From the IMG/VR virus record IMGVR_UViG_2671181019_000011: a DNA stretch of 4,179 bases. The stretch is one strand, 5' to 3'. Below are positions 1,572 to 3,211 of this stretch, piece after piece. Each line of letters starts with the position of its first letter. The stretch's first letter is position 1. Source of the DNA: a virus (taxonomy: Duplodnaviria > Heunggongvirae > Uroviricota > Caudoviricetes). The translations under genes and the position numbers were made by a program. A model generated the notes under the pieces. It saw only the letters and a list, made by a program, of their open reading frames with translations, was not told where the DNA came from and ran no database searches.

Positions 1572-1581
1572 CAATCCTGGA

Positions 1582-1606
1582 AGCGGCAGAAATGCCGCTT
1601 TTTTTA
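1582..1606 (+). terminator. Rho-independent terminator
   Basis: Perfect 7-bp stem AGCGGCA / TGCCGCT (1582-1588, 1593-1599) with GAAA loop, followed by T7 (1600-1606). Confidence 0.8.
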
Positions 1607-1945: not shown

Positions 1946-1970
1946 CGGGTATCACAGATATGACAAACAC

Positions 1971-1998
1971 GAAAAAAGCGGCCCCGATATGGAGCCGC
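1971..1998 (-). terminator. Possible intrinsic terminator for the convergent minus-strand genes (weakly bidirectional)
   Basis: GC stem GCGGC(cc) / (gg)aGCCGC at 1978-1998. On the minus strand it is followed by TTTTTT (complement of A6 at 1972-1977); on the plus strand by CTTTCT. Confidence 0.35.
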
Positions 1999-2093
1999 CT
2001 TTCTGAACAATTAACCCGCTGCGCCTTATGTGTATGTGATCCCAAACATAAGCACGGGGATGATAGCCGCTATCAGGCTGGTGGGCAATGCAA

Positions 2094-2282
2094 TCAGTCT
2101 GGTTCAGTTCGTTGCCATACCTGCAATGAGCGCTTTTCCCTATACTCTTTAAGGAATTGCTCAAGGGCAAAAGCACATGGTGCGAATCTTTCTGATTCAT
2201 GCTCTATCTTTCTGCGCCGTCTTTTCCGTGCCGGTGATAATGTTTTGGTCAATTCTTTATCGGTCATTGTGTTGTCCTGCAT
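2094..2282 (-). CDS. Hypothetical small basic protein (62 aa; 57 aa if started at the second ATG, 2267)
   Basis: Minus-strand ORF downstream of the RHH gene and in the same frame. Contains RKRRRRK. AGGA lies 7 nt upstream of the second ATG. Codon usage resembles the RHH gene. No family recognised. Confidence 0.4.
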   Translation of the reverse strand: MQDNTMTDKELTKTLSPARKRRRRKIEHESERFAPCAFALEQFLKEYREKRSLQVWQRTEPD

Positions 2283-2324
2283 AGCAATGCGCCGTAATAC
2301 CTCACACCACGGCGCTGATAGTTT

Positions 2325-2516
2325 TTATCCTTTGGGTTCTATGCCGCGCCGCTTTAGTTCAGTGCGCCCCAACTCTTTAAGCCAGTTGGCTAGGCTTATG
2401 CCGTCGCTCTGTGCTTCTTTGTCGAATTGCTCTTTTAGCTCTGGAGAAATTCGCATTCTGAATTGTGGGGATTGCCCGTCCCCTTTAGGGCTTTTATCGC
2501 GTTTGATTGTTGACAA
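2325..2516 (-). CDS. Ribbon-helix-helix (Arc/CopG/Mnt-like) DNA-binding protein (63 aa, TTG start)
   Basis: QFRMRISPELKEQFDKEAQSDGISLANWLKELG matches the RHH beta-strand plus two-helix pattern (compare Arc QFNLRWPREVLDLVRKVAEENGRSVNSEIYQRV). TTG start at 2516 preceded by AGGTGA with 4-nt spacing; TAA at 2325-2327. Confidence 0.65.
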   Translation of the reverse strand: MSTIKRDKSPKGDGQSPQFRMRISPELKEQFDKEAQSDGISLANWLKELGRTELKRRGIEPKG

Positions 2517-2560
2517 GTGGTCACCTATTGAATTAGCCTTTCCATTGTTAGGTGGTCACC
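2510..2560. promoter_or_regulatory. Divergent promoter/operator region between the RHH gene and the Icd-like operon
   Basis: TTGACA at 2510-2515 (plus strand) with TAGCCT 18 bp downstream (2534-2539). Two copies of GTGGTCACC (2517-2525 and 2552-2560, each containing a GGTNACC palindrome); the first overlaps the RHH gene's own SD and start. Confidence 0.4.
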
Positions 2561-2577
2561 TTAACACAAGAGCACTT

Positions 2578-2621
2578 AAAAAAGCAAAGCCCCGCAAGTG
2601 TCATTACCACTCGCAGGGCTT
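2578..2621 (-). terminator. Hairpin with minus-strand U-tract (possible insulating terminator); same hairpin lies in the plus-strand leader of the Icd-like gene
   Basis: Stem AAGCCCCGC (2587-2595) / GCAGGGCTT (2613-2621), 8 of 9 pairs. On the minus strand it is followed by TGCTTTTTT (complement of A6 at 2578-2583). Confidence 0.3.
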
Positions 2622-2650
2622 CTAACCAACAACGTAAACTAGGAGCCGTT

Positions 2651-3211
2651 ATGGTTGCCGTAAATCATATACCACACCTTGTACACACACAAACGGCCTT
2701 TGTGTGGCGTTTTCTGGCCCTGAATATCGGAGAAAAAAACCAGTTGATCGCCAGTGTCGAAAATAGCTATGATTCCCGCGCACCTCATAAAACGGGTGCC
2801 GGGATTGGCGTCCTGGGCAAAACTGAAGCGCATAACACGCGCCCCGCGTGTTTTTTTGTGCCGCATAGTCACACCTTATCAATGGTGGGCTGTACGGGGG
2901 CGGAGCAATCCGCGCCGGTTTCTTCAGTGTCCGGTTACGCCAACCCTGCACAGTCCGCCACCAGCGAAATTGGCGTTTCCGGTGGCGGTTATCTTAACCA
3001 CACTGAGGAGGCTGCCAACATGGCTACTATCCCTACCCTTGTACATTCTCAAACCGCCTTTCTCTGGCGCTTTATCATCTTTGGCGCGTCAGAACATCAA
3101 ATCATCCACGTAACCGCCTGGACGGAACGCGAAGCGCGTAGCCGTTGCCCGTCCGGTTGTGTTGCTGTATTCGCCGCCCGTATTCGTCAGGAGGTGTGCC
3201 ATGTGCAATAA
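2651..3211 (+). CDS. Tandem Icd-like (host cell division inhibitor Icd-like) ORF: two Icd-like modules in one frame (186 aa as sequenced); the first module may be frameshifted
   Basis: AGGAG at 2641-2645, ATG 2651, TAA 3209-3211. N-terminal motif IPHLVHTQTAFVWRF repeats as IPTLVHSQTAFLWRF at residue 124. The modules are joined by a Gly/Ser/Ala-rich low-complexity stretch that coincides with GC-rich RNA hairpins. Icd-like assignment is from remembered family motifs, not a search. Confidence 0.45.
   Translation: MVAVNHIPHLVHTQTAFVWRFLALNIGEKNQLIASVENSYDSRAPHKTGAGIGVLGKTEAHNTRPACFFVPHSHTLSMVGCTGAEQSAPVSSVSGYANPAQSATSEIGVSGGGYLNHTEEAANMATIPTLVHSQTAFLWRFIIFGASEHQIIHVTAWTEREARSRCPSGCVAVFAARIRQEVCHVQ
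2897..3011 (+). promoter_or_regulatory. Structured RNA region upstream of the second Icd-like start: two hairpins plus anti-SD pairing (candidate C4/CI-like antisense RNA or translational control element)
   Basis: Hairpin 1: 2898-2904 / 2909-2916 with GCAA tetraloop. Hairpin 2: CCGCCACC 2955-2962 / GGTGGCGG 2981-2988. Long-range pairing 2921-2930 (UCUUCAGUGU) with 3000-3009 (ACACUGAGGA) sequesters part of the SD (AGGAGG 3006-3011). Confidence 0.3.
3020..3211 (+). CDS. Icd-like protein, second module, expressed from an internal start (63 aa)
   Basis: Strong SD AGGAGG at 3006-3011 with 8-nt spacing to ATG 3020. Product MATIPTLVHSQTAFLWRF...TEREARSRCPSGCVAVFAARIRQEVCHVQ has the size and motifs of a small Icd-like protein. 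Confidence 0.55.
   Translation: MATIPTLVHSQTAFLWRFIIFGASEHQIIHVTAWTEREARSRCPSGCVAVFAARIRQEVCHVQ

What the first reader, a model, noticed from the sequence alone, without database searches (positions are those of the whole stretch)
2587..2650. Hairpin plus anti-SD in the leader of the first Icd-like gene, doubling as a minus-strand terminator
The stem 2587-2595/2613-2621 is followed by CUUCUA (2619-2624), which can pair with UAGGAG (2640-2645), the SD of ATG 2651. This parallels the arrangement before the second module. On the minus strand the same hairpin is followed by a U-rich tract, so it could insulate the RHH promoter or end a leftward transcript.
Basis: seen in the sequence. Interest (0 to 1): 0.45.

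Follow-up and report, generated by a model that had tools for sequence, protein, structure and literature searches.

The report
Terminator of a conserved antisense RNA
The hairpin is most likely the transcription terminator of an uncatalogued ~77-nt antisense RNA that lies opposite the ribosome-binding site of the first early gene in many phage-satellite-like islands and probably keeps that gene silent.

Summary
The hairpin at 2587-2621 is real, but it reads best on the minus strand. There it is a 15-bp stem followed by UUUGCUUUUUU. It sits 35 nt downstream of a second stem-loop whose loop carries CUCCUA, the exact complement of the Shine-Dalgarno sequence of ATG 2651. A sigma-70-like promoter (TTGTGT-17-TATGAT, 2692-2664) lies inside codons 5-14 of that gene. 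Together these predict a ~77-nt cis-antisense RNA, about 2656 to 2580.

The cassette recurs in at least 120 viral contigs and in islands of Enterobacterales, Aeromonadales, Vibrionales, Pseudomonas and a Burkholderiales genome. Its stems covary. Its G·U pairs are valid only on the minus strand. Folding z-scores average -5.4 on the minus strand and -3.0 on the plus strand. The antisense -10 keeps a fixed position even where the first gene is unrelated. All 80 loci found through an Icd-like protein carry it.

No Rfam family matches, and I found no paper describing it.

The window fuses this cassette in frame to a P4-type immunity module (isrK/seqA, C4/CI, kil-like icd). No expression data were available.

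The parts
2578..2656 (-). Predicted ~77-nt cis-antisense RNA. The 5' end is inferred at A2656 (+/-2) and the 3' end in the U-tract at about 2578-2581.
   Evidence: Covariance model R1 matches 2575-2658 on the minus strand at 62 bits, E 1e-13. The fold is -35.5 kcal/mol, z=-5.12. The ends are inferred from the promoter and terminator, not measured.
2586..2622 (-). Terminator hairpin with a 15-bp stem and loop GUAAUGA (2601-2607). This is the finding's hairpin read on the other strand.
   Evidence: The two C·A mismatches on the plus strand become G·U pairs on the minus strand. The helix covaries: 8 of 14 pairs and 10 of 14 pairs show changes on both sides.
2578..2588 (-). U-tract UUUGCUUUUUU. 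The first three U pair with AAG at the stem base.
   Evidence: In 66 non-redundant relatives the 12 nt after GGGC hold 7.2 U on average against 3.2 expected. Homology breakpoints in E. coli fall at 2579/2580.
2621..2628 (-). Conserved linker UGGUUAGA (TCTAACCA on the plus strand). UGGUU closes the 5' stem and AGA joins the two hairpins.
   Evidence: It was forced by the search pattern in set 1. In the protein-anchored set it is UGGUNAGA in nearly all of 60 distinct sequences.
2624..2656 (-). 5' stem-loop of the antisense RNA. AACCAUAACG pairs with CGUUG-UUGGUU around the 12-nt loop 2635-2646.
   Evidence: The equivalent helix is 94% paired with 4 double-change pairs in the protein-anchored set.
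2640..2645 (-). Anti-SD CUCCUA displayed in the loop of the 5' stem-loop. It is the exact complement of the SD UAGGAG.
   Evidence: Read from the sequence and the fold. The loop holds CUCC, CCUC or UCCU in 57 of 60 distinct relatives.
2664..2669 (-). Antisense promoter -10, TATGAT. An overlapping TGG-TATATG lies at 2666-2674.
   Evidence: Read. A TAnnnT hexamer starts 16 nt (41 of 66) or 10 nt (20 of 66) upstream of CAT, and in 65 of 66 between 10 and 16 nt upstream. It is kept where the first gene is unrelated.
2687..2692 (-). Antisense promoter -35 candidate, TTGTGT, with a 17-nt spacer.
   Evidence: Read from the sequence. The match is weak (3 of 6) and was not reported by the scan, which needs 9 of 12.
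2640..2653 (+). Target of the antisense RNA: SD UAGGAG and start codon ATG 2651.
   Evidence: The duplex of the antisense RNA with this region is -66.2 kcal/mol. It is complementary by construction.
2651..3211 (+). Long ORF of 186 aa. Its first 24 codons equal the N-terminus of the single 65-aa Icd-like genes of related islands. It then reads in frame through isrK and C4 into the second Icd-like gene, like the P4 eta/kil arrangement.
   Evidence: It is homologous to the P4 'cI' ORF region.
2510..2560 (+). Candidate sense promoter TTGACA (2510-2515), 18-nt spacer, TAGCCT (2534-2539). It is flanked by the repeated GTGGTCACC (2517-2525 and 2552-2560), which are likely operators.
   Evidence: Read from the sequence. 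L003 and L006 show the same layout with other operator sequences. This is inference only.
2325..2516 (-). RHH-type (HicB/Arc-like) gene. It is co-oriented with the antisense RNA and starts 62 nt beyond the terminator.
   Evidence: HicB, 20.4 bits, just under the cut-off. PGAP calls the homologue in L003 a 'HicB family antitoxin'. The arrangement recurs in relatives.

Best explanation
The hairpin is the intrinsic terminator of a small cis-encoded antisense RNA gene on the minus strand.

Transcription would start at about 2656 from a promoter buried in the first codons of the rightward gene (-10 TATGAT, 2669-2664). It would run leftward across the start codon and the SD and stop in the U-tract at about 2580.

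The ~77-nt RNA folds into two hairpins. The 5' hairpin shows the anti-SD CUCCUA in its loop. The 3' hairpin is the terminator.

Because the RNA is fully complementary to the 5' UTR and start of the early-operon mRNA, it most likely pairs with that mRNA, starting loop to loop at the SD. This would block translation of the first ORF, with probable RNase III cleavage and polarity on the genes downstream. It would act as a post-transcriptional lock on top of the operator-controlled sense promoter.

The terminator also stops this leftward transcription before the RHH promoter and operator region.

In this window the locked ORF is an eta-like frame that reads through the P4-type isrK/C4 immunity module. 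The antisense RNA would therefore also decide whether upstream transcripts are translated across that module.

Shown here: the structure, the strand asymmetry, the covariation, the conserved promoter position, the U-tract and the distribution. Inferred: that the RNA is made, its exact ends, and that it represses.
For: (1) The minus-strand fold is -35.5 kcal/mol, z=-5.12; the plus-strand fold is -22.1, z=-2.19. Over 66 non-redundant relatives the mean z is -5.36 on the minus strand (66 of 66 below -2) and -2.96 on the plus strand. The minus strand scores lower in 63 of 66.

(2) There are 70 G·U pairs on the minus strand against 20 on the plus strand. The minus-strand hairpin is more stable in 50 of 56 variants, and the whole region in 84 of 84. 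One base pair of the terminator stem reads CG 30, GU 22, AU 10, and the G·U form is valid only on the minus strand.

(3) Covariation in the pattern-collected set: 87.4% of cells paired against 76.5% in shuffles, score 0.302 against 0.132 (0 of 500 shuffles reach it), slid controls 0.05-0.07. In the protein-anchored set: 93.7% against 85.3%, 14 pairs with changes on both sides against 7.4, score 0.273 against 0.134, slid controls at most 0.074.

(4) The antisense -10 hexamer starts 10 to 16 nt upstream of CAT in 65 of 66 relatives, mostly at 16 or 10 nt. It is present as TAGAAT, TAAAAT, TATAAT, TACAAT or TACACT where the first gene is unrelated: HNH, GIY-YIG, integrase, ArdC-like or Cys-rich. 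The sense-strand -10 has no fixed position.

(5) The terminator scan and the U-tract enrichment support termination.

(6) E. coli homology breakpoints coincide with the 3' end of the predicted gene.

(7) 80 of 80 loci, and nearly all loci of a second set of 80, found through Icd-like proteins carry the model on the minus strand ending 8 nt past the ATG.

(8) The anti-SD sits in the 5' loop in 57 of 60 distinct sequences.
Against: No transcript data of any kind were available, so the promoter and terminator are consensus-level predictions.

The -35 is weak (TTGTGT). Many relatives lack a good -35 or an extended -10.

In the large Icd-like classes the -10 overlaps conserved codons, so part of its conservation could come from the protein.

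The first collection was made with a pattern that fixed GCCC, GGGC and TCTAACCA. The covariance-model alignments lean towards the model. The sequences are related, so the shuffle controls overstate significance.

The U-tract is interrupted (UUUGC...). In non-enteric variants it drops to as few as 4 U of 12.

The plus-strand RNA necessarily forms the mirror hairpins (mean z -2.96), so a role for them in the mRNA cannot be excluded.
Confidence: 0.7

Rival explanations
1. Plus-strand leader element. The hairpin forms in the mRNA 5' UTR, and its 3' flank CUUCUA pairs with the SD UAGGAG to throttle translation. A variant of this idea is that the hairpin stabilises the mRNA.
For: The hairpin lies inside the sense 5' UTR whichever sense promoter is used. 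It folds in the plus-strand minimum-free-energy structure. Plus-strand z-scores are mildly negative (mean -2.96).
Against: The CUUCUA:UAGGAG pairing has 1-10% ensemble probability in the window and at most 2.3% in 93 relatives. The plus-strand stem carries C·A and A·C mismatches exactly where the minus strand has G·U. This reading does not explain the fixed antisense -10, the U-tract, or the conserved second codon GCU/GUU, which pairs with UGGUU only on the minus strand.
Confidence: 0.07
2. Terminator or insulator only. The hairpin stops stray leftward transcription from entering the RHH promoter and operator region. The short RNA it produces is a by-product with no regulatory role.
For: The terminator is strong. 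RHH or YlcI-type genes and operator-like repeats lie just beyond it in most enterobacterial relatives.
Against: A promoter kept at a fixed distance of about 77 nt across unrelated genes and distant taxa implies selection for the transcript itself. So do the conserved 5' stem-loop with the anti-SD in its loop and the conserved linker. In distant relatives no co-oriented gene follows the terminator.
Confidence: 0.12
3. Leader and attenuator of the leftward repressor operon. The promoter inside the icd-like gene is the real promoter of the RHH gene, and the hairpin is a regulated attenuator in its leader.
For: The RHH gene is co-oriented and starts 62 nt after the terminator. I found no strong separate RHH promoter; the best candidate is TTGCTT-18-TAAGGT, read by eye.
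Against: The homology breakpoint lies exactly at the end of the U-tract. Upstream modules are swapped freely among at least three repressor types, and some relatives have no co-oriented gene at all. This argues that the cassette is autonomous. A 15-bp stem with a U-tract predicts efficient termination.
Confidence: 0.08
4. DNA-level element. The inverted repeat is a protein-binding palindrome, or a single-strand hairpin used in replication or recombination, with TCTAACCA as a conserved flanking site.
For: The layout of a hairpin followed by an invariant 8-mer resembles HUH-nuclease or nic-site architecture (own knowledge). The conserved 8-mer also coincides with recombination breakpoints between modules.
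Against: Wobble pairs valid on only one strand, bulges, and loops of variable length and sequence fit RNA and not duplex DNA recognition. No relaxase or HUH gene is annotated in the islands examined. The position between a promoter and an SD in every case also points to RNA.
Confidence: 0.03

Closest known systems
SymR antisense RNA of the E. coli symE-symR locus (own knowledge; Kawano, Aravind & Storz 2007)
   Same: It is a ~77-nt cis-encoded RNA whose promoter lies just inside the target's coding region. It is fully complementary to the 5' UTR, SD and start codon, and it represses translation of a harmful protein.
   Different: There is no sequence or covariance-model similarity: nothing of that kind was reported by cmscan up to E=10. 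The family here is carried by mobile islands, is attached to many different first genes, and has a conserved UGGUNAGA linker.
sar RNA of phage P22 immI (own knowledge)
   Same: It is a short antisense RNA made from a promoter that converges on the early or antirepressor promoter. It covers the RBS of the downstream gene and sits in an immunity-type region.
   Different: No Rfam match to the window was found. sar overlaps an intercistronic region of a phage, whereas this RNA covers the whole 5' UTR of the first gene of a satellite or island. It is absent from 50,697 phage records by blastn.
Plasmid countertranscripts (ctRNA_pGA1 RF00236, CopA-type)
   Same: They have a two-hairpin antisense RNA with a 3' terminator opposite the leader of a replication operon, with loop-loop recognition. 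The operon controlled here ends in a primase or helicase gene.
   Different: The score is only 15.1 bits against a gathering score of 45, so it is not a member. The element is chromosomal and integrative, not a plasmid copy-number system.
C4/CI antisense RNA with isrK/seqA (RF01695, RF01394): P1 and P4 immunity
   Same: It acts on the same kind of target, the translation-initiation region of an Icd/Kil-like gene, by antisense pairing through a loop complementary to the SD. Both systems are present in this window. C4 pairs significantly with the second initiation region (z=-2.95) and not with the first (z=-0.25).
   Different: C4/CI is encoded on the sense strand upstream of its target, is processed, and acts in trans through short loop sequences. 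The RNA here is encoded opposite its target and is fully complementary. P4 itself has isrK and C4 but not this RNA.
int-alpA RNA motif (RF02996)
   Same: It is found in the same sort of integrase/alpA islands of Gamma- and Betaproteobacteria. It was detected in related loci L217 and L013.
   Different: It lies at other positions in those loci and is not detected in the window. It is a different RNA.

Membership tests
Intrinsic (Rho-independent) terminator | A G+C-rich stem-loop immediately followed by a U-rich tract on the transcribed strand | tested here: met
   Minus strand 2622-2586: 15 pairs, 8 G-C, 7-nt loop, then UUUGCUUUUUU. The U enrichment is conserved, 7.2 of 12 against 3.2 expected. 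On the plus strand no U-tract follows the stem.
Intrinsic (Rho-independent) terminator | Transcripts end there in vivo or in vitro | not testable with these tools
   No transcript-end data were available.
Cis-encoded antisense sRNA (SymR / sar / ctRNA kind) | Its own promoter on the strand opposite the target, at a fixed short distance from a terminator | tested here: met
   TTGTGT-17-TATGAT at 2692-2664. The -10 position is conserved in 65 of 66 relatives and across unrelated first genes and distant taxa. This is prediction only.
Cis-encoded antisense sRNA (SymR / sar / ctRNA kind) | A conserved secondary structure specific to the antisense strand | tested here: met
   Supported by z-scores, G·U asymmetry and covariation.
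Cis-encoded antisense sRNA (SymR / sar / ctRNA kind) | The RNA accumulates and represses its target | not testable with these tools
   This needs a Northern blot or RNA-seq, and reporter fusions with compensatory mutations.
Type I toxin-antitoxin system | The antisense RNA is paired with a small toxic protein gene | tested here: inconclusive
   In many islands the target is a 65-aa Icd-like protein (NF033153), and P1 Icd and P4 Kil are harmful when expressed (own knowledge). But the same cassette precedes HNH, GIY-YIG, integrase, ArdC-like and Cys-rich genes. In this window the target ORF is a 186-aa fusion.
C4/CI antisense RNA (RF01695) | A match to the covariance model at or above the gathering score | tested here: not met
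   There is no C4 hit at 2575-2660. The window's C4 lies at 2878-2965.
Plasmid ctRNA (RF00236) and Pseudomonas rnk leader (RF01772) | A match to the covariance model at or above the gathering score | tested here: not met
   15.1 bits against 45 and 26.1 bits against 55, both on the minus strand. Both matches rest on a generic hairpin-plus-terminator shape.
int-alpA RNA (RF02996) and Esr41 (RF02676) | A match to the covariance model | tested here: not met
   Neither was reported in the window up to E=10. int-alpA was found elsewhere in L217 and L013.
   P(SD paired with CUUCUA) is 0.01-0.10 in the window and at most 0.023 in 93 relatives.

The most novel reading that the evidence does not exclude
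The cassette may be a portable antisense 'gatekeeper' that serves as the main maintenance or immunity determinant of a very large family of proteobacterial phage satellites and integrative islands. Its variable hairpins would set the specificity, giving cross-immunity groups. It would be functionally interchangeable with the P4/P1 C4-CI system, and this window would have captured the two systems fused in tandem.
Probability: 0.3. Interest if true: 0.75.

Novelty: new member of a known kind. Interest (0 to 1): 0.55.

Why it matters
How P4-like and PICI-like satellites of Gram-negative bacteria keep their early, replication operon silent until a helper phage arrives is known in detail only for P4 itself, through CI RNA.

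A conserved antisense RNA opposite the first ribosome-binding site of that operon would be a second, widespread RNA-based lock. The window region 2480-2720 matches 889 of 5,426 complete E. coli genomes, and the RNA occurs in several other proteobacterial orders. It gives a concrete, mutable target for testing satellite induction thresholds.

It also corrects annotation. The region is currently covered by spurious ORFs, and the RNA is missing from Rfam.

Finally, Icd/Kil-type genes appear to be placed under antisense control by two unrelated RNA solutions.

Tried and rejected
1. Esr41 and the Pas, AgvB and AsxR sRNAs of pathogenic E. coli. Esr41 lies on SpLE1 and is in Rfam, and it does not match the window.

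2. P4 itself. The model does not hit the P4 genome. P4 has only the isrK and C4 part.

3. Plus-strand ideas recalled from memory: a lambda nut or rrn boxB-boxA-like antitermination site (GCUUCUAACCAA against boxA GCUCUUUAACAA, 8 of 12 by eye), a tRNA-like RNase P substrate (ACCA tail), and an HUH nick site. I dropped these because the strand asymmetry and the antisense promoter point to the other strand. None was tested further.

4. Trans action of the antisense RNA on the second icd initiation region is not better than shuffles (z=-0.90). C4 on the first initiation region is also no better (z=-0.25).

5. YUNR U-turn motifs in the loops occur in about half of the loops on either strand, so they are uninformative.

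6. A fixed sense-strand -10 next to the hairpin holds for some distant relatives (TGnTAGAAT or TAAAAT) but not in general.

7. The search for related loci with a 12-sequence Icd alignment failed because no stretch was conserved enough.

8. mafft-qinsi was unavailable. The plain MAFFT alignment misaligned the middle of the stems, so I used covariance-model realignment.

9. The genome contigs pattern was too loose. Most of the listed loci were chance matches, and only those above about 45 bits with R1 were kept.

10. Literature searches by exact sequence and by keywords found no description of this RNA.

Full report
**What the window is.** The window is part of an E. coli-type integrative island. 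It is 98% identical to several E. coli chromosomes. It holds a P4-type integrase (1-1242) and an AlpA-like HTH gene (1739-1945). Two small leftward genes follow, including an RHH/HicB-like one (2516-2325). After them comes a rightward operon. In relatives that operon continues into DUF4222, a RepA helicase or DUF927 primase, SSB, PerC and a small terminase subunit, which is the make-up of a phage satellite or PICI-like element.

Rfam finds isrK (2780-2856, 66 bits) and C4 (2878-2965, 73.8 bits) inside the rightward ORF. P4 has the same isrK-C4-kil order, and its ORF there is homologous to the window's. IsrK and C4 are the seqA and CI RNA of the P4 literature (PMC3632133). A promoter-like site at 2744-2773 would start transcription at the isrK 5' end.

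**Checking the observation.** On the plus strand the stem has C·A and A·C mismatches, and the fold is unremarkable (z=-1.08 and -2.19). The CUUCUA:UAGGAG pairing competes with the base of the stem and has only 1-10% ensemble probability. On the minus strand the same bases give a perfect 15-bp stem with two G·U pairs, followed by UUUGCUUUUUU.

**The element is not specific to this window.** Most related E. coli islands have a single 65-aa Icd-like gene directly after the same leader. The window and L001 have the P4-type module inserted in frame after codon 24.

Reading these on the minus strand shows a constant layout:
- a -10-like hexamer a few bases before CAT, the complement of the start codon;
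- a stem-loop carrying CUCC or CCUC;
- the linker UGGUUAGA;
- a G+C-rich hairpin of variable sequence;
- a U-rich tail.

**Strand of action.**
- The minus-strand hairpin is more stable in 50 of 56 distinct variants. The whole region is more stable on the minus strand in 84 of 84. G·U pairs number 70 on the minus strand and 20 on the plus strand.
- With dinucleotide-preserving shuffles the mean z is -5.36 on the minus strand (66 of 66 below -2) and -2.96 on the plus strand. The minus strand is lower in 63 of 66. Base composition alone therefore does not explain the asymmetry.
- The conserved second codon GCU/GUU of the first gene pairs with the conserved UGGUU only in the minus-strand RNA, as AGCCA:UGGUU with a G·U pair.

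**Covariation.** I built a covariance model, R1, from 66 sequences less than 93% similar to one another. It hits the window at 2575-2658 on the minus strand (62 bits).

On the realigned pattern set, 87.4% of cells pair against 76.5% in shuffles. The covariation score is 0.302 against 0.132 (0 of 500 shuffles reach it), and slid controls give 0.05-0.07. Eight of the 14 terminator pairs change on both sides.

That set was collected with a pattern that fixes GCCC, GGGC and the linker. I therefore collected a second set through an Icd-like protein class. One of the two peptide patterns used lies far downstream of the RNA, and the other covers N-terminal codons next to the antisense promoter. All 80 loci carry the model on the minus strand, ending 8 nt past the ATG. 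In that set 93.7% of cells pair against 85.3%, 14 pairs change on both sides against 7.4, the score is 0.273 against 0.134, and slid controls are at most 0.074. There the linker reads UGGUNAGA, and the 5' loop holds an anti-SD in 57 of 60 distinct sequences.

Caveats: the rows are related to one another, and alignments fitted to a model lean towards it.

**Promoter and terminator.**
- On the antisense strand, a TAnnnT hexamer starts 16 nt (41 of 66) or 10 nt (20 of 66) upstream of CAT. In 65 of 66 sequences it starts between 10 and 16 nt upstream.
- It persists where the first gene is an HNH or GIY-YIG nuclease, an integrase, an ArdC-like protein or a Cys-rich protein. It also persists in Pseudomonas, Photobacterium, Oceanisphaera and a Burkholderiales genome. 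Protein coding therefore cannot explain it.
- In the window it is TATGAT (2669-2664) with TTGTGT 17 nt upstream. This places the start at about A2656, which is an inference.
- The sense-strand -10 has no fixed position.
- U content after the stem is 7.2 of 12 against 3.2 expected.
- Blast breakpoints in E. coli fall at 2579/2580, the 3' end of the predicted gene, and at the linker. The cassette therefore behaves as a recombining unit.

**Mechanism (inferred).** A ~77-nt RNA with a base-paired 5' end, an anti-SD loop and a strong terminator, fully complementary to the target's 5' UTR and start codon, is the classical design of cis-antisense repressors. I expect loop-loop contact at the SD, duplex extension, a block of translation initiation and probably RNase III cleavage. 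This would act alongside the RHH/operator-controlled sense promoter.

In this window the controlled frame reads in frame through isrK and C4 into the kil-like gene, and the same in-frame fusion recurs in two Icd classes. By analogy with P4 eta, where translation across the region prevents immunity-dependent termination (own knowledge; Forti et al. 1999), the antisense RNA would gate escape from C4 immunity.

C4 pairs significantly only with the second initiation region (z=-2.95). The antisense RNA pairs only with its own, z=-11.99, and gives z=-0.90 on the second. The two RNA systems are therefore separate and are not parallel copies.

**Comparison with what is known.** No Rfam 15 family matches on either strand. 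The best scores are rnk leader at 26 bits and ctRNA_pGA1 at 15 bits, both far below threshold. int-alpA occurs in related loci but at other positions. Esr41 is a different RNA on a different island. The segment is absent from 50,697 phage records and present in only 3 plasmid records. Exact-sequence and keyword searches of the paper library found no description.

In function it resembles SymR, P22 sar and plasmid countertranscripts. It is a member of none of them.

**Verdict.** The hairpin is real, and its best-supported role is as the terminator of a conserved, apparently undescribed cis-antisense RNA gene. Everything rests on sequence analysis, and expression has still to be shown.

Noticed in passing
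window 2744-3211: This is a P4-type immunity module. A promoter-like site TTGATC-18-TATGAT (2744-2773) would start transcription at the 5' end of isrK (2780-2856). C4/CI follows at 2878-2965 and a kil/icd-like gene at 3020-3211. The same order and homology are seen in phage P4 (L207: 8692-8168, minus strand).
   Followed up: partly
window 2919-2930 and 3000-3011: The C4 loop UUUCUUCAGUGU is complementary to ACACUGAGGAGG, which covers the SD of ATG 3020 (12 pairs, 3 of them G·U). The C4 duplex with the second initiation region scores z=-2.95. The duplex with the first scores z=-0.25.
   Followed up: partly
window 2768-3049 (aa 40-133 of ORF 2651-3211): The Pfam 'Phage_ASH' match (PF10554, 61 bits) covers exactly the stretch that encodes the isrK and C4 RNAs. 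The frame stays open in frame across both RNA genes, and the same in-frame fusion occurs in two Icd classes (L060, L097, L122; L070, L087, L108). This resembles the P4 eta/kil nesting.
   Followed up: partly
window 2991-3018, minus strand: A promoter-like site TTGGCA-16-TAAGAT points leftward, just right of the C4 3' end, and would transcribe antisense to C4. A weak partial match of the antisense-RNA model lies at 3027-2964 on the minus strand (10.4 bits). It has the 5' stem only and no terminator.
   Followed up: no
window 1972-2004, minus strand: A second strong terminator-like hairpin (14 pairs, tail TTTTTT) lies between the stop of the AlpA-like gene (1945) and the stop of the leftward ORF 2282-2094. 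It probably ends the leftward RHH operon.
   Followed up: no
window 2517-2527 and 2549-2560: GTGGTCACC is repeated 35 bp apart, flanked by CCTA and TAGG. The repeats bracket the -10 of a TTGACA-18-TAGCCT promoter, and the TTG start of the RHH gene overlaps the -35. Relatives keep this layout with other repeat sequences: GTGTACACC in L003 and TGTGTTTCATG/CATGAAACACA in L006. These are probably operators.
   Followed up: partly
window 1960-2625, plus strand: A 221-aa ORF rich in Cys, Ser, Arg and Leu runs antisense to the two small leftward genes. Its counterparts are annotated in RefSeq relatives as a 'hypothetical protein' or as a partial 'Icd-like' pseudogene (L001, L002, L005). It looks like an annotation artefact that hides the RHH genes.
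   Followed up: partly
L189 687-769 and 1425-1508; also L155, L177, L186, L190, L193, L203: Some islands carry two copies of the antisense-RNA cassette about 740 nt apart. In L189 the upstream copy faces only a degenerate Icd N-terminus. The downstream copy faces an intact icd, which is itself followed by C4 and another icd-like gene.
   Followed up: partly
L217 6497-6566 and L013 2505-2576: The int-alpA RNA motif (RF02996) occurs in two of the distant islands that also carry the antisense-RNA cassette, at unrelated positions.
   Followed up: no
window 1579-1602, plus strand: A terminator-like hairpin with a T-run lies right after the small ORF 1320-1571, between the integrase and the AlpA-like gene.
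   Followed up: no
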